Shown: positions 125 through 14,051 of the stretch, piece by piece
Position numbering within the stretch: position 1 is the stretch's first letter
Layout of the letters: each line of letters begins with the position of its first letter
UHGV virus genome: UHGV-1756799
Length of the DNA stretch: 15,469 nucleotides
Source of the DNA: a virus
Reading direction: 5' to 3' (one strand)
The notes under the pieces: model-generated
What the model saw: the letters and a program-made list of their open reading frames with translations, nothing else
The model's database searches: none
Told to the model about the DNA's origin: nothing
Made by a program: the position numbers and the translations under genes

Positions 125-454
125 CTATGCCACGACCTGTTCAAAATCTGCCGTTATGGTTACCCACAACGCCCCCACGCTTGCCGACCATTTACGACAA
201 ACCACCCTGATCGGCTTCCAGTCATAAGGTGGCGTCCACTGAAATGCGCGGACGCCACCGTGCCGTTCCAGAAAGGCTTTTAAAGATGGGTGTTCACATT
301 TACGAACACGTATCGTCACGCTGTAAGTCGACAACTGGTTATTCAGTCCCGCCGCACGACGCTGTTCATAACCATCGCCAAGCTTCACTGTCACCACTTT
401 CGGCTCTGATACCACATTCATATCCGGGCGCACTTTCCAGTGAAACGTCTCCAT
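125..454 (-). CDS. M: Minor tail protein M
   Basis: 109-aa ORF, same length as lambda gpM, with recognisable similarity along its length (GDGY, HGG, WTPPY, AxFEQVV motifs); start overlaps the H stop as TAATG. Confidence 0.9.
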   Translation of the reverse strand: METFHWKVRPDMNVVSEPKVVTVKLGDGYEQRRAAGLNNQLSTYSVTIRVRKCEHPSLKAFLERHGGVRAFQWTPPYDWKPIRVVCRKWSASVGALWVTITADFEQVVA

Positions 455-3400
455 TACCGATATGCTCCACTTAACCGACCACCATCACGGGCCTGCTGTT
501 GCATAAAGTCCGCTGCCGCTTTTTTCCCGAGGTCATAAACCGCCTTCAGGGCAGCCGGACCTATCTGCCCGTTCGTGCCATCGTTATTGATCTCGATGTT
601 GTACTGCGGGGAAAACATCGCCATACCTGAACCCCCAATATCCGCCACAACCCCCAGCTTACCGTCAGCACCACGACGCAATGGCAGAATGGCTTCAGGT
701 CCCGCTTCCCCCATCACACCCGCGCCTTTTGCAAAAGCAAAAAACGTCGGACGGTTAACCACCGTGCCACTGTAACGACTCAAATCAGCAGACTGATAAA
801 TCCCCCCATTGGCATTCAGGGAAAGGCTGCTGAGATCAAATCCCAGCACACTGCCAATCCCTTTTATCGATTTCATCATGGTTGCCTGCGCCAGGATTTT
901 CGCCATATCTGACAGCACAGAAGAGGTGAAGGATTTGAAATTGAGTTTGCCGGTAGTGACAAAAGTTGCCAGGCCATTTCCCATGTTGCTGAAGGCTGAC
1001 GAGAACACCTGTTCTGCTGTTCCTGCCGTATTATCTGCATCCACGGTAAAATCCTGAAATGCACGCAGGACTCCGTTTTTCCAGTTACCCTGCACAACTT
1101 CAAGCTGTTGCCAGTAACGGCGATTCTCATTCAGTTGTCGGTTCAGGCTCTCCGTCAGCGCCTGCTCGGCCTTTCTGTAGTCATCCGTGTTATATGTTCC
1201 TTTCTGCTCACTATCCCGCCTCAACTGCTCCAGCTGTTGCTGGTATTTCTGGCGAAGACTCAGTTGTACCTGATATCGCTGCCGCTGCTGATCACCCATA
1301 CCCACCGTGGCGATATCCAGGTCATGTTGCTGACGCTGAGCGCGCTCTTCTTCAGCCAGTTGACTGGTCAGCTGAATTGTTTTTTTCTTCAGCTCGTTGA
1401 GTGCCGTCTGTTTCTGAAGCTCCTGCTGTTTTACATCCAGCAGCGTCAGTGCCTGAATCAGTTCATCTTTACGGGCCAGCACACTCTTTTCATCTGCCGT
1501 CAGTTTTTTCCCGTCCAGGTCGCTGATGCGCTGCTGCAGAGCCAGAAGCTGTTTATGCGCTTCTGTCATCCTTTCCGTGGCAATGCCTGCTGACTGTCTG
1601 GCAGCAGCAATCTGTCCTTCCACCTGTGCCTGTTGCTGACTGTACTGCAGCAATAACCGGGTGGCCTCATCATTACGGGGTTCGCGTGTTTTTTTCTTAC
1701 CGGATGCCAGGGCTTTCTCGTAACGTTCATTTTCACGTTGTATCGCTGCATCCCTGACAGCCTGATCGGCGTACTGCATGGAATTAATACGCGCAATTTC
1801 ACGCTGATGTCGTGCTGCTTCCGTTTCATTCATCCGGTTCAGTGCAGCATTTTCAGCATTACGTCGTTTCTGTTGCTCCTGATAATTCCGCTCTGCCTGC
1901 TCTTTTGCATCCTGCAAATCCTTCTGGCGTTTTTTCTCCTGAAGATCGTTAAGACGCTGCTGATCGTATTCAACCTGAGAAGATGATGCCGTCCAGGGGA
2001 GTCTTTTCGCCCGCGACACTTTCTCCTGTAAAGCGGCAATCTGTTCATCCAGCGAGTCTTCACGACCAATATTCATGGCCGCATCCCAGAAACGACTCCA
2101 CAAATCAGACAGATACTTCAGCGTACTGCCAAGCGCATTGAGGTTATTATCAATATCCGCAGTACGCCGACCGGTTTCCTCTGCCAGTGCAGACATGGCT
2201 ATCCGTGCAGCATCACTGGACCGTCCCTGATCCCCAAGGACACGTATCTGCTCAAGCTGAGTGGCAGTAAGAAAATGCAGCTCATTGTCCAGAGCCTTCG
2301 CGGCATTTACAGGATCATCCTTCAGCCGCTTAAACTGATTTATGGTATCGCTGACCGACTGGCCAACCGATCGCTCCATCTGTGCGGCAGCTCTCGCCAC
2401 CATACCGATATCGTTTCCACGAAATGCACCACTCCCCACCACCTGAGCCAGCGCACCGGCTGCAGCATGTTGCGTGATACCATTCCCGGAAATAGCACGA
2501 CTGAGCGTCCACAGCTGCCCGGCAGTGACTCCGGCATAATGCCCCGTCAGCGACAACTGGCGGTTAAATTCTTCCCCCTCCTTCTGACCGTCATACCAGG
2601 CTTTACCCAGACCATAGACGGACGCGGCAATACCGCCAATAACCCCGCCAAGCATCATGCCTTTCGGTGACATCAGAGTGTCTATCCATCCGGCACGGTT
2701 AGCCAGCGTTATCCCGGATCCCCTCAGCGCCCCTAAATTGCCGCGGGCCAGTTCACCTATCAGAACGCCAATCTCCTGGCGGGCCGCTGCACTTTTCAGA
2801 CCCAGCGAATGCGTGGCTTTTCCTGCCTGCTCCATTTTGCGGATATACACTTCTGCAGCACTGCTTACCCCCAGCTGGGCAGCCTTAGCACGAAGCAACT
2901 CAGAAGAAGAAAGATTCTGGCGGGTTGCCTGCTCTTTAAGCTGACGGATAAACGCCACTTTCTGTCGGGTAGCCTCTTCCTCAGCCTGCGTAAGAACACG
3001 GGTTTTCGCCGTAACCTCAGAAATCAGCGCCAGATAATCCTGCTGACCAATCCCGCCACTGTTTCTGGCCTGTCGGATCTGCTGCTGAATACGCTGTAAT
3101 TCCTGCAGCCCCGCACTGGCCTGTTTCACACTGTCAATCTGACGATAAAACGCGGCAGCCGCTTTATCCTGAGCCTCCGCCAGAGCCATGGCCTGCGCCT
3201 GTTCCTCGCGCATTTTCTGGCTCAGTGCCTCCATACGCTGGCGGGTTTGCTCCACCTCGCGGGCCATGCGTTCATGAGCCTGTGCGCTCTTCTCCACCGT
3301 CTGCGCATGGACGGATGCGGCTGTTGCAGCCGAAGAAGCCGCCTGCATTGTCTGCCGGGCGGCCTGAGTCTGACGCTCCATAAAACGCTGCATACGGGCA

Positions 3401-3519
3401 GAAGACCGTTCTGCATCGCTGGCTGCACCATTCAGAAGGTTTTTGATACGGGGAATTTCATTTTTAAACTCTGCCGCATCAATCCCCAAATCAATGACCA
3501 GGTTGGCTATCTGGTCCAT
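454..3519 (-). CDS. H: Tail tape measure protein (lambda gpH-like), about 1021 aa
   Basis: Very long ORF rich in Q/A/E/R coiled-coil sequence with a Gly-rich hydrophobic segment; the track start at 3549 is TTG, so I chose ATG at 3519 (MDQIANLVIDLGIDAAEF, matching the lambda gpH N-terminal pattern) preceded by GGAGGTG. Confidence 0.9.
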   Translation of the reverse strand: MDQIANLVIDLGIDAAEFKNEIPRIKNLLNGAASDAERSSARMQRFMERQTQAARQTMQAASSAATAASVHAQTVEKSAQAHERMAREVEQTRQRMEALSQKMREEQAQAMALAEAQDKAAAAFYRQIDSVKQASAGLQELQRIQQQIRQARNSGGIGQQDYLALISEVTAKTRVLTQAEEEATRQKVAFIRQLKEQATRQNLSSSELLRAKAAQLGVSSAAEVYIRKMEQAGKATHSLGLKSAAARQEIGVLIGELARGNLGALRGSGITLANRAGWIDTLMSPKGMMLGGVIGGIAASVYGLGKAWYDGQKEGEEFNRQLSLTGHYAGVTAGQLWTLSRAISGNGITQHAAAGALAQVVGSGAFRGNDIGMVARAAAQMERSVGQSVSDTINQFKRLKDDPVNAAKALDNELHFLTATQLEQIRVLGDQGRSSDAARIAMSALAEETGRRTADIDNNLNALGSTLKYLSDLWSRFWDAAMNIGREDSLDEQIAALQEKVSRAKRLPWTASSSQVEYDQQRLNDLQEKKRQKDLQDAKEQAERNYQEQQKRRNAENAALNRMNETEAARHQREIARINSMQYADQAVRDAAIQRENERYEKALASGKKKTREPRNDEATRLLLQYSQQQAQVEGQIAAARQSAGIATERMTEAHKQLLALQQRISDLDGKKLTADEKSVLARKDELIQALTLLDVKQQELQKQTALNELKKKTIQLTSQLAEEERAQRQQHDLDIATVGMGDQQRQRYQVQLSLRQKYQQQLEQLRRDSEQKGTYNTDDYRKAEQALTESLNRQLNENRRYWQQLEVVQGNWKNGVLRAFQDFTVDADNTAGTAEQVFSSAFSNMGNGLATFVTTGKLNFKSFTSSVLSDMAKILAQATMMKSIKGIGSVLGFDLSSLSLNANGGIYQSADLSRYSGTVVNRPTFFAFAKGAGVMGEAGPEAILPLRRGADGKLGVVADIGGSGMAMFSPQYNIEINNDGTNGQIGPAALKAVYDLGKKAAADFMQQQARDGGRLSGAYR

Positions 3520-4218
3520 AACGCACACCTCCGGAAATACCTTCCCCAAGATGCATCAGTTCTTCGTCCGTTCGCTCCGGTATCCCGTTCTCTTCCGGTA
3601 AAAGGCTGAAATCAGCCACCGCAGCATCACTGCTACCGGACACCATTCTCACGATCAATGCCTTCAGCGAGGCAAACTGCGCATCCATCCACACATCACT
3701 GAAGCTCTGCATCCGGAAATAATCGCCCCACTCACCAAGCTCAGTGGCCGACATTTCCGACAGCATCCGCCGCCAGTCTGCCCGCCGGAACTCCCGGGCA
3801 AGCCGCATGACAAACTGCATTTCCCGCGTCAGGACTTTTCCGGCGTCAGCACCTCATGCTCCAAATCCCCGGCATTCTCAATGACTCCCATACCGCTCAG
3901 CGACAGAACCATCTCCGCCCCCGCTCCCAGGGCATCATACGACCATGTTGTAATAACGGATGCGCAAAGCGTCTCAACATCCTGAGACTGTTCCGCATTC
4001 CACAGTGAGCGGGAAACCAGCCAGGCATTGATATCCATCCCCATCCGCAGAAAAGCAATCTGTCGTTCAGCCTCCGGCAGTTCTCCCTCTTCGGCATCAA
4101 ACTTTGCCGTTCGCTGCTGAACAAACGCCAGATATTCAATTCTCTGCAGCCCGGACAGCTCACTGAGCACCACGGACTGCTTTTCATAATTAAACGTGCC
4201 CTGTTTCAGAAACATCAT
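3491..4218 (-). CDS. T: Tail assembly chaperone G-T fusion made by programmed -1 ribosomal frameshift near the end of G
   Basis: The T reading frame (3491-3853) is open and overlaps the 3' end of G in the -1 frame with no credible independent RBS; a slippery-like heptamer GGAAAAG (minus strand, plus coordinates 3835-3841) sits 2 codons before the G stop. G/GT frameshifting is conserved across long-tailed phages. Confidence 0.7.
3829..4218 (-). CDS. G: Tail assembly chaperone G
   Basis: Translation from ATG at 4218 (MMFLKQGTF...SELSGLQRIEYLAF) resembles lambda gpG; strong RBS GGTGGAG upstream; the track start at 4257 is TTG and runs through the V terminator hairpin, so I rejected it. Confidence 0.85.
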   Translation of the reverse strand: MMFLKQGTFNYEKQSVVLSELSGLQRIEYLAFVQQRTAKFDAEEGELPEAERQIAFLRMGMDINAWLVSRSLWNAEQSQDVETLCASVITTWSYDALGAGAEMVLSLSGMGVIENAGDLEHEVLTPEKS

Positions 4219-4231
4219 GTTCTCCACCTGC

Positions 4232-4255
4232 AAAAAAGCCCCGGATAACCGGGGC
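4232..4255 (-). terminator. Intrinsic terminator or attenuator between V and G
   Basis: Minus-strand GCCCCGG-TTAT-CCGGGGC hairpin followed by TTTTTT, immediately after the V stop (4276) and before the G RBS. Confidence 0.6.
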
Positions 4256-4275: not shown

Positions 4276-5019
4276 TTAACCTGCGGCGCTGACAGCCACC
4301 GCAGCCACTGCCACAAAATCGCCGTCAGAAGTCATGCCCACAATGCTGACACTGCCCTGCTTCACGCCTTTCACCGTGGCCACAAGCCCGTTCAGGGTCA
4401 CCGTGGCAGTCTGTGGATCTGTCGAATGCACACTGATCGCTTTGTCACTGGCTCCGTCAGGTTTTACTGTAAAGGTCAGCGTGGTGGTTGCTCCCACTTT
4501 TACACTGGCAGATGCCGGTGCCACCGTCAGCCCGGTAACGCTCACTGTTTCAGTGCCTTCCTCTGCCAGATACGGACGCCCCACACCGCTGATTTTCACT
4601 GTGCGGGTCATCACGTCTTTTGAGGCAATGGTTTTACCCAGTGAGCTCAGCCAGCCACGGAAAACATCAACAGTGCCGTTGGGATATTTGATACGAAACG
4701 CGCAGACTTCACCGGAGTCGAACAACTGAACCAGTTTTTTCTGCCCGCTGTCACCCGGACGCCAGGCCAGCGTCGCCGAAGTATCACCGACGGATTTCTG
4801 CCCCTGGGTTGTCGTTTTCCAGTCTGCATCTTCATCATCGAGATAAGTGTCATCTTCTGCATCAGCGGTCATTTCGCCAGGTTGCAGATCCTTCACCATC
4901 GCAAGACGCAGCCAGTCAGTGTCCGATAAAGGGTTCGCAAACGCATCGCCCTTGCCGGTGTACATCCAGAACGTCGTTCCCGCACCTTTCGTTTTTGCCA
5001 GTGGATTTGGTGTGGTCAT
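4276..5019 (-). CDS. V: Major tail protein V with C-terminal Ig-like domain
   Basis: Translation resembles lambda gpV (PNP..KGAGTT, LDDEDADW, FRGW) with a Thr/Val-rich Big_2-like C-terminus; the track start at 5025 is GTG, so I chose ATG at 5019 preceded by AAGGAGGTG. Confidence 0.9.
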   Translation of the reverse strand: MTTPNPLAKTKGAGTTFWMYTGKGDAFANPLSDTDWLRLAMVKDLQPGEMTADAEDDTYLDDEDADWKTTTQGQKSVGDTSATLAWRPGDSGQKKLVQLFDSGEVCAFRIKYPNGTVDVFRGWLSSLGKTIASKDVMTRTVKISGVGRPYLAEEGTETVSVTGLTVAPASASVKVGATTTLTFTVKPDGASDKAISVHSTDPQTATVTLNGLVATVKGVKQGSVSIVGMTSDGDFVAVAAVAVSAAG

Positions 5020-5030
5020 TGCCACCTCCT

Positions 5031-5444: not shown

Positions 5445-6007
5445 AACCTCAGTTGTTGTTTCAGTGCATACCCCAGCTGTTTCGGCATTTCCGCAGCAAT
5501 AATGCGGTCGCGGGCATCTTCAAATGCCTGTGTCAGCGGTCCGGACAGCGGGACTTTCACCACATCAATGGGGTAACGATTTTTGCCATCAATACGCCGC
5601 ATCACATGCCAGCGACCATTCGCCAGTTGCTGAATAAACGCATCCCGGAAAAGATATTTACCCACCTTCAGCACACTGCCACGGTACTGCAGTTTTCCAC
5701 CACGCCGGGCCAGTCTGACCCGGGCTGTCCCCAGCTTAATAGCGGGCAGATTGCCCCGGTTAACGCGGATCCTGGCCGTCATTTTTCCTGACGGACTGGC
5801 TTTAAACACCCGGACACGCTGACGTACCAGTTTCAGGGGGATCCCTTTCACCTGGTTATCTCCCGCAACGGTATTCCCGGCAACCTGCCGGGTGGCGACC
5901 GAGACCGCTTTCTGTGCCACACGGTTTATCGCCCATGCGCTGGCCTGTGGCACCATACGGGTATCAAGGCTGTTCAGATTACGGATGGCATTCTCAAGCC
6001 CCTTCAT
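5429..6007 (-). CDS. Z: Tail completion protein Z
   Basis: 192 aa, the same length as lambda gpZ, in the syntenic position; RBS AGAGGTG 5 nt upstream of the ATG. Confidence 0.8.
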   Translation of the reverse strand: MKGLENAIRNLNSLDTRMVPQASAWAINRVAQKAVSVATRQVAGNTVAGDNQVKGIPLKLVRQRVRVFKASPSGKMTARIRVNRGNLPAIKLGTARVRLARRGGKLQYRGSVLKVGKYLFRDAFIQQLANGRWHVMRRIDGKNRYPIDVVKVPLSGPLTQAFEDARDRIIAAEMPKQLGYALKQQLRLWLTR

Positions 6008-6018
6008 CCCACACCTCT

Positions 6019-6294
6019 TTACTCAATAAAGATCATTGGCTTACCGTTAAAACGTTCATGCCGTGTGACCGTCCATTGTTGTCCGTCATAAACAACGCGA
6101 TCCCCGCGCCGTGGGCGGTATCCCGAAGAAAACACCACCAGAGAGACCGCAGGTCCGGACAGAGCATTCAGCTCTGCCAGTGTTTCTCCCGGGATCACAG
6201 TCATATCGACATCATTAATCGAGGCTGTCTTTCCCATCTTTCTGACCGTGATAGCATCCATACGCGCTGCCAGCCGGGAAAAGGGATCAGACAT
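6019..6294 (-). CDS. Head-tail joining protein, lambda FII-like (often annotated in Gifsy-type prophages as ATP-binding sugar transporter-like)
   Basis: 91-aa ORF between the head and tail modules; the RRGD motif and small size resemble gpFII; ATGTCTGA overlap with the upstream gene stop suggests coupling. Assignment is by position and weak resemblance only. Confidence 0.5.
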   Translation of the reverse strand: MSDPFSRLAARMDAITVRKMGKTASINDVDMTVIPGETLAELNALSGPAVSLVVFSSGYRPRRGDRVVYDGQQWTVTRHERFNGKPMIFIE

Positions 6295-6610
6295 TGAGTT
6301 TTACCGGCACTTCTTCTGCACTGGTTCCGGCATCTGCCCAGACAACCCCGACCAGCGGATCAGAGCCGCTGTTAGTCAGCTGAACTTTTCCGGACTTCAG
6401 ATAAACCTTCTTACCCGTTTTCATGTCATCCGTTTTCAGCTTAGGCAGCATAAACACACCTTCGGTCATGCCGTCGCCTGTTTCACCCTGTGGAATATCG
6501 GTCAGCGCCACCGCAAAAACATCGCCCACCTGCACCAGATCTCCGCTGCTGATGGCTGCACTGGCAACAATCGCCACCGTTTTTCCTTCTTCTACAAAAT
6601 TCTTTGCCAT
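6287..6610 (-). CDS. DUF2190-like small head-associated protein (possible decoration or head-completion protein)
   Basis: About 107 aa from ATG at 6610 (MAKNFVEEGKTV...) with RBS GGAGA; the track start at 6655 is TTG and overlaps terminator hairpins. Family assignment is from memory of prophage capsid-adjacent genes. Confidence 0.5.
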   Translation of the reverse strand: MAKNFVEEGKTVAIVASAAISSGDLVQVGDVFAVALTDIPQGETGDGMTEGVFMLPKLKTDDMKTGKKVYLKSGKVQLTNSGSDPLVGVVWADAGTSAEEVPVKLNV

Positions 6611-13751: not shown

Positions 13752-14051
13752 TTTGTCGCTCCATGCGTTTGCTCGTCATCTAGCGGTTAAAATATTACTT
13801 CAAATCTTACTGCATAAAAGAGGAAAAGTATGAAAGTTTGAGTACATCGACCTTACATACATCTGTCGGTTGCATATCCCTCCTGGATGCCAGCAAGGCT
13901 CAATTTTGTTACGCAATCAACACTATTCATTAAAAACAGGCTTAATATTTGACATAAATCATCAACAAAACACAAAGAGGTCAGACCAGATTAAAACAAT
14001 AAACACGATAATGCAAACTACGCGCCATCGTATCACATGGAAGGTTTACCA

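What the first reader, a model, noticed from the sequence alone, without database searches (positions are those of the whole stretch)
3829..3853. G-T frameshift window with a non-canonical slippery heptamer
The T frame is open from about 3853 and overlaps the end of G in the -1 frame, as expected for the conserved G/GT tail chaperone frameshift. The only candidate slippery site just before the G stop is GGAAAAG (plus coordinates 3835-3841), which departs from the canonical XXXYYYZ pattern and from lambda's G-GGA-AAG as I recall it.
Basis: partly seen in the sequence, partly recalled or inferred. Interest (0 to 1): 0.45.

Follow-up and report, generated by a model that had tools for sequence, protein, structure and literature searches.

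The report
Known-type phage G-T tail frameshift site
This is the usual lambda-style "slip back one base" site that lets a prophage make a small amount of a fused G-T tail-assembly chaperone; its odd-looking slippery sequence GGAAAAG is a conserved variant already annotated in phage N15, so the finding is correct but ordinary.

Summary
On the minus strand, gene G (lambda gpG family) ends ...ACG CCG GAA AAG TCC TGA at 3829. The T frame (lambda gpT family) is the -1 frame and is open from 3853. The only re-pairing-competent site in the 25-nt overlap is G_GAA_AAG (3841-3835).

It sits at the position homologous to lambda's G_GGA_AAG and differs by one base. The heptamer is invariant in 21 distinct lineages of this clade, although the surrounding G tail is hypervariable. 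In some relatives the overlap is only 19 nt. Conservation of the T-frame peptide starts exactly at the heptamer (GKVL..E..F..LAREF, shared with lambda).

The in-frame ATG that annotators use as the T start is not conserved; it is absent in Gifsy-2.

The same heptamer is found in phi80, mEp043 and a Klebsiella phage. The N15 GenBank record explicitly annotates it as "slippery sequence for -1 translational frameshift". Relatives with the window's layout carry canonical GGGAAAG, so the two forms have been exchanged at least twice.

The likely mechanism is low-level -1 slippage driven by tRNA-Lys (AAG to AAA), with tRNA-Glu re-pairing GAA to GGA through a middle G·U pair. I found no downstream RNA structure. 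An upstream GAGG motif is only suggestive.

Verdict: real, already known, low interest. RefSeq and GenBank records nevertheless annotate G and T separately.

The parts
3829..4215 (-). Gene G, the tail assembly chaperone. It is 128 aa from the MFLK start at 4215. An in-frame ATG one codon upstream at 4218 would give 129 aa. The stop TGA is at 3831-3829.
   Evidence: Translation. Pfam PF06894 Phage_TAC_2, E 7.4e-40. Homologues and RefSeq start at MFLK.
3835..3841 (-). Shift site G_GAA_AAG in the G frame, read as GGA AAA G in the T frame. It is homologous to lambda's G_GGA_AAG.
   Evidence: Invariant in 21 unique lineages. The same 7 bases are annotated as the slippery sequence in N15.
3829..3853 (-). 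G/T overlap window. It runs from the first open T-frame codon (after the T-frame TGA at 3856-3854) to the G stop.
   Evidence: The equivalent window is only 19 nt in relatives L101, L108 and L110.
3491..3835 (-). T-frame (-1) coding part of the predicted GT fusion. It runs from codon GTC (3835-3833) to the stop at 3493-3491 and adds 114 aa, giving a predicted GT of about 241 aa.
   Evidence: Pfam PF06223 Phage_tail_T, E 5.1e-15. 39% identity to lambda T and 44% to N15 gp15, aligned from the heptamer onward.
3818..3820 (-). In-frame ATG that RefSeq and GenBank use as an independent T start (109-aa ORF). It lies 8 nt after the G stop and is not conserved in the clade.
   Evidence: The position of the first T-frame ATG varies from 3 to 24 codons after the heptamer among relatives.
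3850..3855 (-). GAGGTG, a Shine-Dalgarno-like hexamer. GAGG is followed by a 10-nt spacer before the heptamer. It is a possible but unproven upstream stimulator.
   Evidence: Predicted anti-SD duplex of -9.2 kcal/mol, in the top 1% of 8-mers in G. A GAGG-like motif is seen at -14 in most clade members. It is absent in N15 and phi80, which use the same heptamer.
4232..4255 (-). Intrinsic terminator-like hairpin GCCCCGG-TTAT-CCGGGGC followed by T6, between the major tail gene V and G. It is context that would lower G/T/H expression relative to V.
   Evidence: Annotated as a terminator at the same place in Ayreon, mEp460 and N15.
454..3519 (-). Tape measure gene (lambda H homologue). The likely start is the ATG at 3519-3517, preceded by GGAGGTG. 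It overlaps the end of T by 29 nt.
   Evidence: The Ayreon and RefSeq annotations show the same overlap.

Best explanation
This is the G/GT tail-assembly-chaperone recoding site of a lambdoid E. coli prophage of the cdtI / mEp460 / Ayreon type.

- Most ribosomes read G to its stop and make gpG.
- A small fraction slip back one base on G_GAA_AAG and continue in the T frame. This makes a roughly 241-aa G-T fusion with the predicted junction ...LTPEK|VLTREMQF...
- By analogy with lambda, the G part of the fusion would bind the tape measure protein and the T part would recruit the major tail protein.
- The slip is driven by the single E. coli tRNA-Lys (mnm5s2UUU) moving from AAG to the fully cognate AAA.
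- The preceding tRNA-Glu either re-pairs from GAA to GGA, with a G·U pair in the middle position, or does not need to re-pair well. The second case is the NNA_AAG "hexanucleotide" type of shift.

Shown here: the gene identities, the frame geometry, the homology of the site to lambda's, and its conservation. Inferred: that the shift happens, its efficiency, and whether one or two tRNAs slip.
For: 1. G is Phage_TAC_2 and T is Phage_tail_T, in the V-G-T-H gene order.
2. T is in the -1 frame. The overlap is 25 nt here and only 19 nt (TTCGCCGGAAAAGTCCTGA) in L101, L108 and L110.
3. The heptamer is at the position of lambda's GCG GGA AAG. T-frame homology to lambda T and N15 gp15 starts at the heptamer's Gly-Lys.
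4. The heptamer is 100% conserved in 21 unique lineages, whereas the G tail just upstream is hypervariable. All 120 listed protein homologues with an intact C-terminus end in (T/S)PEK(S/P/F), apart from one partial sequence that ends in PYKS.
5. T-frame residues between the heptamer and any ATG are conserved, with synonymous change at the Glu codon (GAA/GAG). The frame upstream of the heptamer is not conserved.
6. The first T-frame ATG is not conserved; it lies 24 codons downstream in Gifsy-2 and L110.
7. The same heptamer occurs in N15, where the record annotates it as the slippery sequence, and in phi80, mEp043, Klebsiella phage Kp4865-4 and a Superficieibacter prophage.
8. Serratia and Symbiopectobacterium relatives with the window's layout carry ACG CCG GGA AAG TCT TAG. 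The G/A exchange therefore occurred in both layouts.
9. Literature: -1 shifting at NNA_AAG, and heptamers whose X_XX is G_GA, are both known (PMC5009743). GAA to GGA re-pairing through G·U has been proposed for mycobacteriophage chaperone sites (PMC10885494). In E. coli, cognate A-site re-pairing matters most (PMC4066793).
Against: - No GT product or frameshift frequency was measured for this heptamer in any source I could read.
- In a reconstituted E. coli system, G GAA AAG gave mainly 0-frame product and served as the "less slippery" control for G GGA AAG (PMC6924986).
- A_AAG alone gave about 0.15% in vivo without a stimulator, against 5.6% with a pseudoknot (PMC4066793).
- I found no convincing stimulator. 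The downstream folds are no better than shuffled sequence (z -0.96 and +0.09).
- In this particular window an ATG lies 8 nt after the G stop, so some free T could also be made.
Confidence: 0.85

Rival explanations
1. There is no recoding. T is an independent gene translated from the ATG at 3820-3818, perhaps by termination-reinitiation after the G stop 8 nt upstream, as RefSeq and GenBank annotate it.
For: A 109-aa ORF with an ATG start exists. PGAP, mEp460 and cdtI-type records annotate G and T as separate CDS.
Against: - The ATG is not conserved. The first T-frame ATG lies 3, 6, 9, 10 or 24 codons after the heptamer in different lineages, and gene callers give T lengths of 87-110 aa.
- Gifsy-2 and L110 would lose the conserved LAREFRRPDW start of the T domain.
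- The GGGAA just before the ATG has almost no spacer.
- T-frame conservation begins at the heptamer, upstream of the ATG.
- By established knowledge of lambda, T acts only as part of GT (summarised in PMC5009743).
Confidence: 0.07
2. The frame change is real, but the essential signal is the heptamer plus an upstream Shine-Dalgarno-like GAGG (10-nt spacer, as in E. coli dnaX). This motif would compensate for the weaker P-site re-pairing of GGAAAAG in this clade.
For: - GAGGTG lies at 3855-3850, with a predicted anti-SD duplex of -9.2 kcal/mol, in the top 1% of 8-mers in G.
- There is a local conservation peak G-A-G-G at -14 to -11 inside a hypervariable stretch.
- The Glu codon at that position is GAG wherever Glu occurs there, in most of the representative lineages, while by inspection other Glu codons in the tail are mostly GAA.
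- Mean duplex energy is -7.3 kcal/mol in 20 clade lineages, against -5.7 in 3 relatives of the same layout that carry canonical GGGAAAG.
Against: - Synonymous-recoding tests are individually not significant (P 0.03 to 0.77), and the lineages are not independent.
- The tail is rich in Glu, Asp and Gly codons, which produce GAGG by composition alone.
- N15, phi80 and mEp043 use the same GGAAAAG with no SD-like sequence (0 to -1 kcal/mol).
- Some clade members are weak (L204, -2.9).
Confidence: 0.2
3. The frame change is made at the RNA level, by RNA polymerase slippage on the A run; or the ribosome shifts at a different place or in a different direction.
For: None specific. The run of four A is the only homopolymer in the overlap.
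Against: - By established knowledge, known transcriptional slippage sites need far longer runs (about 7-9 or more); the review in PMC5009743 describes slippage on a T5C5 motif and on 9 Ts in T. thermophilus dnaX. Here there are only four A.
- The overlap can be as short as 19 nt, and no other codon in it can re-pair at -1.
- The +1 frame is closed.
- The homologous lambda site is a proven ribosomal -1 site (Levin et al. 1993, as cited in PMC5009743 and PMC3296357).
Confidence: 0.02

Closest known systems
Bacteriophage lambda G / G-T programmed -1 frameshift (G_GGA_AAG; about 4% shifting)
   Same: - Same two protein families and the same V-G-T-H gene order.
- The shift site is at the homologous codons.
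- The T-frame Gly-Lys and the following ..E..F..LARE motif are shared.
   Different: - Heptamer position 3 is A rather than G. The P-site codon is therefore GAA (Glu), which must re-pair to GGA with a middle G·U pair.
- The G-frame stop follows after 1 codon rather than 5.
[quoted passage not shown]
Phage N15 genes 14/15 (also phi80, mEp043, Klebsiella phage Kp4865-4): G-T junction with GGAAAAG
   Same: - Identical heptamer in the same phase, GCG GAA AAG.
- The N15 record labels it "slippery sequence for -1 translational frameshift".
- 44% identity across T, aligned from the heptamer.
   Different: - These phages keep the lambda-like layout, with the stop 5 codons downstream (1 codon in Kp4865-4).
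- The preceding codon is Ala (GCG), not Pro (CCG).
- They lack the upstream GAGG motif.
Gifsy-2 prophage (Salmonella) G/T pair
   Same: - The same 18 nt, ACGCCGGAAAAGTCCTGA, at 55% G-protein identity.
- T is annotated as part of a frameshift hybrid protein.
   Different: - There is no T-frame ATG near the junction.
- The acidic tail of G differs.
NNA_AAG hexanucleotide / A_AAG single-tRNA-Lys -1 shift sites (B. subtilis cdd A_CGA_AAG, IS1222 G_CGA_AAG)
   Same: - A_AAG decoded by the shift-prone tRNA-Lys.
- The preceding tRNA cannot re-pair cognately.
- Shifting is at a low level (PMC5009743; PMC4066793).
   Different: - Here the 5' codon can still form two Watson-Crick pairs plus one G·U pair in the -1 frame, so the site is intermediate between a hexamer and a true heptamer.
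- No proven stimulator is present.
G_GAN_NNN-type heptamers of eukaryotic RNA viruses (insect-specific flaviviruses, umbraviruses, dianthoviruses, mesoniviruses) and the mycobacteriophage GGGGGAA chaperone site
   Same: - X_XX is G_GA, or GAA re-pairs to GGA through G·U (PMC5009743; PMC10885494).
   Different: - Different hosts, tRNAs and A-site codons.
- The eukaryotic sites rely on strong downstream RNA structures.

Membership tests
Lambda-type G/GT tail assembly chaperone frameshift cassette | Located between the major tail protein gene and the tape measure gene, on the same strand. | tested here: met
   Order V (4276-5025), G, T, tape measure (454-3519), all on the minus strand. Ayreon is annotated the same way.
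Lambda-type G/GT tail assembly chaperone frameshift cassette | The upstream ORF is a gpG homologue and the downstream ORF is a gpT homologue. | tested here: met
   PF06894 at E 7.4e-40 and PF06223 at E 5.1e-15. BLASTP to lambda T gives 39% identity, E 6e-29.
Lambda-type G/GT tail assembly chaperone frameshift cassette | The downstream ORF is in the -1 frame and overlaps the 3' end of G. | tested here: met
   T-frame codons start one base 5' of the G codons. The overlap is 3853-3829.
Lambda-type G/GT tail assembly chaperone frameshift cassette | A conserved, in-phase, shift-prone site lies inside the overlap. | tested here: met
   G_GAA_AAG is in phase, invariant in 21 lineages, and at lambda's position.
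Lambda-type G/GT tail assembly chaperone frameshift cassette | T has no conserved translation start of its own. | tested here: met
   Across the clade, the first T-frame ATG varies from 3 to 24 codons after the heptamer. In this window itself an ATG does exist at 3820, so the feature is met for the family but not decisive for this one copy.
Lambda-type G/GT tail assembly chaperone frameshift cassette | A GT fusion protein is made at a few percent of G and is needed for tail assembly. | not testable with these tools
   This needs a western blot, mass spectrometry or genetics. No such data for this heptamer were found in the papers searched.
Canonical X_XXY_YYZ tandem-slippage heptamer | The first three bases are identical, so the P-site tRNA keeps its first two pairs after the -1 shift. 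| tested here: not met
   The bases are G-G-A. tRNA-Glu on GAA would face GGA, a middle-position G·U pair.
Canonical X_XXY_YYZ tandem-slippage heptamer | The A-site codon YYZ re-pairs to YYY. | tested here: met
   AAG re-pairs to AAA. In E. coli both are read by one tRNA-Lys (PMC6924986).
NNA_AAG / A_AAG single-tRNA-Lys -1 shift motif | A_AAG is in phase in the 0 frame. | tested here: met
   GAA AAG in the G frame.
NNA_AAG / A_AAG single-tRNA-Lys -1 shift motif | Appreciable shifting normally needs a stimulator (an upstream SD-like sequence or a downstream structure). | tested here: inconclusive
   The downstream folds are not better than shuffles. The upstream GAGGTG is present, but the statistics are weak and it is absent in N15 and phi80.
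dnaX-type signal (SD-like, heptamer, downstream hairpin) | A stable hairpin or pseudoknot lies a few nucleotides 3' of the heptamer. | tested here: not met
   z -0.96 (100 nt) and +0.09 (60 nt). No Rfam family matched the window.
Transcriptional slippage site | A long homopolymer run (about 7-9 or more A or T). | tested here: not met
   There are only four A.

The most novel reading that the evidence does not exclude
In this very common E. coli/Salmonella prophage clade, the weakened heptamer G_GAA_AAG may be kept at a workable GT level by two clade-specific features. One is an upstream Shine-Dalgarno-like GAGG at a dnaX-like 10-nt spacing. The other is a 0-frame stop placed exactly one codon after the heptamer. 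Both slipping tRNAs (Glu and Lys) carry mnm5s2U34. The G:GT ratio, and hence tail assembly, might therefore depend more strongly on the host's tRNA thiolation state than it does in lambda.
Probability: 0.15. Interest if true: 0.35.

Novelty: already known. Interest (0 to 1): 0.12.

Why it matters
The finding matters little as a discovery. The G-T frameshift is a textbook case, and GGAAAAG is already annotated as its slippery sequence in N15.

There are two practical points. First, the cassette occurs in about a third of complete E. coli genomes (1849 of 5426), yet the RefSeq and GenBank records I inspected annotate T as a free-standing ORF with an arbitrary start and omit the GT fusion. Second, the site is a natural test case for how much P-site mismatch bacterial -1 frameshifting tolerates. 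The 0-frame dipeptide (Glu-Lys) differs from the -1-frame dipeptide (Gly-Lys), so a junction peptide would show at which codon the slip occurs, which lambda's own sequence cannot reveal.

Tried and rejected
- **Downstream stimulatory RNA structure.** I folded 60 and 100 nt 3' of the heptamer. Neither was better than shuffled sequence. The GC-rich hairpin about 45 nt downstream is not conserved in the Salmonella lineages.
- **Rfam.** No family reached threshold anywhere in the window.
- **Upstream SD-like stimulator.** It is suggestive within the clade, but not significant under synonymous recoding, and it is absent from N15 and phi80. I kept it only as a minor hypothesis.
- **Independent T initiation.** Rejected as the conserved route, because the ATG is not conserved.
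- **Transcriptional slippage, or another shift site or direction.** Rejected on sequence grounds.
- **Natural G-T fusion proteins in the database (P0031, P0046).** They are deletion derivatives, not annotated slippage products.
- **Sampling.** The genome-contig scan returned only 13 loci, so I obtained diversity from viral contigs, exact-protein look-ups and phage records instead.
- **Literature not retrievable.** Xu et al. 2004 (Mol Cell), Licznar et al. 2003 (EMBO J) and Xu et al. 2013 (PMC3907469) were not held. What I say about them comes from reviews that cite them or from my own knowledge.
- **Literature searches.** Searches for GGAAAAG or "G GAA AAG" together with phage tail terms found nothing specific.

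Full report
**What is in the sequence.**
All relevant genes are on the minus strand. Gene G runs from 4215 (MFLK start; an extra in-frame ATG lies at 4218) to the TGA at 3831-3829. It ends ...GAG GTG CTG ACG CCG GAA AAG TCC TGA. The next ORF downstream has a TGA at 3856-3854, is open from 3853 to 3491, and has codons that begin one base 5' of the G codons. It is therefore the -1 frame and overlaps G by 25 nt. GGAAAAG lies at 3841-3835 in the phase G_GAA_AAG. None of the other overlap codons (GTG, CTG, ACG, CCG, TCC) can re-pair one base back.

**What the genes are.**
- G matches Pfam Phage_TAC_2, the lambda gpG family, at E 7e-40. The -1 ORF matches Phage_tail_T at E 5e-15.
- They lie between the major tail protein (4276-5025, with a Big_2 domain) and a 1031-codon tape measure ORF.
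- The region is 99.7% identical to phage Ayreon and about 98% identical to phages cdtI and mEp460.
- It occurs in 1849 of 5426 complete E. coli genomes, including O157:H7. The window is therefore the head and tail module of a very common lambdoid prophage.

**Homology of the site to lambda's.**
Lambda reads GCG GGA AAG at the corresponding place, and the window reads CCG GAA AAG. Translated from the heptamer in the T frame, the window product aligns without gaps from its first residue (Gly-Lys). It is 39% identical to lambda T taken from lambda's own shift site (E 6e-29) and 44% identical to N15 gp15.

**Conservation.**
- Among 120 G homologues, the C-terminal tail is an acidic, hypervariable stretch. 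Even so, every homologue with an intact C-terminus ends in (T/S)PEK(S/P/F), apart from one partial sequence that ends in PYKS.
- At the DNA level, 193 loci collapsed to about 33 distinct contexts.
- In 21 representative lineages the seven bases are invariant. Positions -36 to -13 show only 58% major-allele identity.
- In L101, L108 and L110 the overlap is only 19 nt, TTCGCCGGAAAAGTCCTGA. This leaves no room for another site.
- In the T frame, the peptide upstream of the heptamer is unconserved (GADA, IRGHDA, NGSGRGRFA and so on).
- From the heptamer onward the T-frame peptide reads GK(V/A)(L/F)xxExxF(V/A)xxLAREF in all lineages, including lambda. The conserved Glu codon shows synonymous change.
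- Conservation in the second frame thus starts exactly at the proposed shift site.

**The annotated alternative.**
RefSeq (PGAP) and most GenBank records annotate T as a separate 109-aa ORF starting at the ATG at 3820, with no slippage. That ATG is not conserved. The first T-frame ATG lies 3, 6, 9, 10 or 24 codons after the heptamer in different lineages. In Gifsy-2 and L110 it falls inside the conserved T domain, and gene callers give T lengths from 87 to 110 aa. Independent initiation may add some free T in this particular copy. It cannot be the conserved mode of expression.

**How unusual the heptamer is.**
It is not unusual within this family. A survey of gpG-family junctions gave the following:
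- G_GGA_AAG in lambda, PhiR46_1, Chlobot, PhiR12_2* and an Stx2a phage.
- A_AAA_AAG in an Stx1a-converting phage.
- G_GAA_AAG in phi80, mEp043, Klebsiella phage Kp4865-4 and a Superficieibacter prophage.
- A_AAA followed by a stop codon (CTG GCA AAA TAG) in Ewingella-type elements.

The N15 reference record annotates its GGAAAAG as "slippery sequence for -1 translational frameshift". The Gifsy-2 record carries the identical ACGCCGGAAAAGTCCTGA and calls its T homologue part of a frameshift hybrid protein. Serratia and Symbiopectobacterium relatives have the window's layout (ACG CCG G.A AAG TC. stop) but carry canonical GGGAAAG. The G/A difference at heptamer position 3 therefore arose in both layouts. 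The two forms appear functionally interchangeable.

**Mechanism.**
- The A-site event (tRNA-Lys, AAG to AAA) is fully cognate. It is the main determinant of -1 shifting in E. coli (PMC4066793).
- The P-site tRNA-Glu would re-pair from GAA to GGA with a G·U pair in the middle position. The same re-pairing is proposed for the mycobacteriophage GGGGGAA chaperone site (PMC10885494). It also corresponds to the "G_GA" class of X_XX noted for several eukaryotic viruses (PMC5009743).
- Alternatively, only tRNA-Lys slips, as at NNA_AAG sites such as cdd and IS1222.
- The expected efficiency is low. G GAA AAG was the "less slippery" control in vitro (PMC6924986). A_AAG alone gave about 0.15% in vivo without a stimulator (PMC4066793).
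- Lambda needs only about 4% shifting (PMC3296357), a G:GT ratio of about 30:1 (PMC5009743).
- N15 and phi80, which I know as viable phages, carry this heptamer. A low rate is evidently sufficient.
- If both codons are decoded in frame 0 before the slip, the junction is ...LTPEK|VLTREMQF... and GT is about 241 aa.

**Search for stimulators.**
- Downstream folds are not better than shuffled sequence (z -0.96 and +0.09). No Rfam family matches the window.
- Upstream, GAGGTG (3855-3850) could pair with the anti-SD. The spacing of GAGG plus 10 nt equals that of dnaX, by my own knowledge of dnaX.
- GAGG is a local conservation peak at -14 to -11 in the clade. The Glu codon at that position is GAG wherever Glu occurs there, in most of the representative lineages.
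- However, the synonymous-recoding tests are individually not significant, and the region is rich in Glu, Asp and Gly codons. N15, phi80 and mEp043 use the same heptamer without any SD-like sequence.
- I regard the upstream motif as a weak, clade-specific hypothesis.

**Verdict.**
Two things remain. One is an annotation gap, since the GT fusion is not annotated in the E. coli and phage records I inspected. The other is a small unanswered quantitative question, since the efficiency of G_GAA_AAG in its native context has not been measured in any source I could access.

Noticed in passing
window 4232-4255 (minus strand): A strong intrinsic-terminator-like hairpin (GCCCCGG TTAT CCGGGGC followed by T6) lies between the major tail gene and G. 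The same place is annotated as a terminator in Ayreon, mEp460 and N15. It would set G/T/H expression below that of V.
   Followed up: partly
window 3850-3855 (minus strand); same position in L002, L004, L093, L099, L101, L110, L207, L210 and others: A Shine-Dalgarno-like GAGG lies 10 nt upstream of the heptamer and forms a local conservation peak inside a hypervariable coding stretch. The Glu codon there is GAG wherever Glu occurs at that position in this clade, but GAA in the phi80, N15 and mEp043 lineages.
   Followed up: partly
window 3829-3834 (minus strand) and all clade loci: The 0-frame stop codon lies exactly one codon after the heptamer in every lineage with this layout (TGA, TAA or TAG), including the Serratia-type relatives that carry GGGAAAG. 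Lambda, phi80 and N15 have it five codons after. I could not tell whether this is functional or a by-product of the T-frame Leu codon (CTG A).
   Followed up: no
L095, L111, L112 (Ewingella americana and related viral contigs), G 3' end: These gpG-family members have neither GGGAAAG nor GGAAAAG. The only re-pairing site in the overlap is A_AAA directly followed by TAG (CTG GCA AAA TAG), a shift site next to a stop codon, with Gly-Lys still encoded in the T frame.
   Followed up: partly
L214 (Stx1a-converting phage Stx1_131719), G 3' end: The Stx1 phage sampled has the dnaX-type heptamer A_AAA_AAG (TCA AAA AAG) at the G-T junction. One protein family thus shows at least four different shift sites.
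   Followed up: no
Proteins P0031 (215 aa) and P0046 (212 aa): Some E. coli contigs encode in-frame G-T fusions created by deletions. In P0046 the deletion joins ...WSYDA directly to GKVLTREMQ, entering the T frame at the heptamer's Gly-Lys. It probably arose between short GA(T/C)GCC repeats. These are likely defective prophages.
   Followed up: partly
RefSeq and GenBank records H78, H83, H1, H13; phi80 JX871397: G and T are annotated as separate CDS, with T starts that differ between records: 109 aa in RefSeq, 87 aa in Ayreon, and a start 51 nt after the G stop in phi80. No ribosomal slippage feature is given, although N15, O276 and Gifsy-2 do annotate the fusion or the site.
   Followed up: yes
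window 2817-2823, 6385-6391 (minus strand); 5647-5653, 6277-6283, 13822-13828 (plus strand): There are five further copies of GGAAAAG in the window (6 in total against 2.6 expected; 14 of 200 shuffles reach 6). The copy in the tape measure gene is in the phase GGA_AAA_G, which is not shift-prone. I did not examine the others.
   Followed up: partly
L086 (MAG labelled Bacillota bacterium) and L091 (MAG labelled Proteobacteria, soil): These metagenome-assembled genomes carry this E. coli prophage G gene at 98% and 93% protein identity. This suggests mis-binned or contaminating E. coli contigs.
   Followed up: no
window 3491-3519 (minus strand): The tape measure gene most likely starts at the ATG at 3519-3517, preceded by GGAGGTG. 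It overlaps the last 29 nt of T. The ORF lister's TTG at 3549 is probably not the real start.
   Followed up: partly
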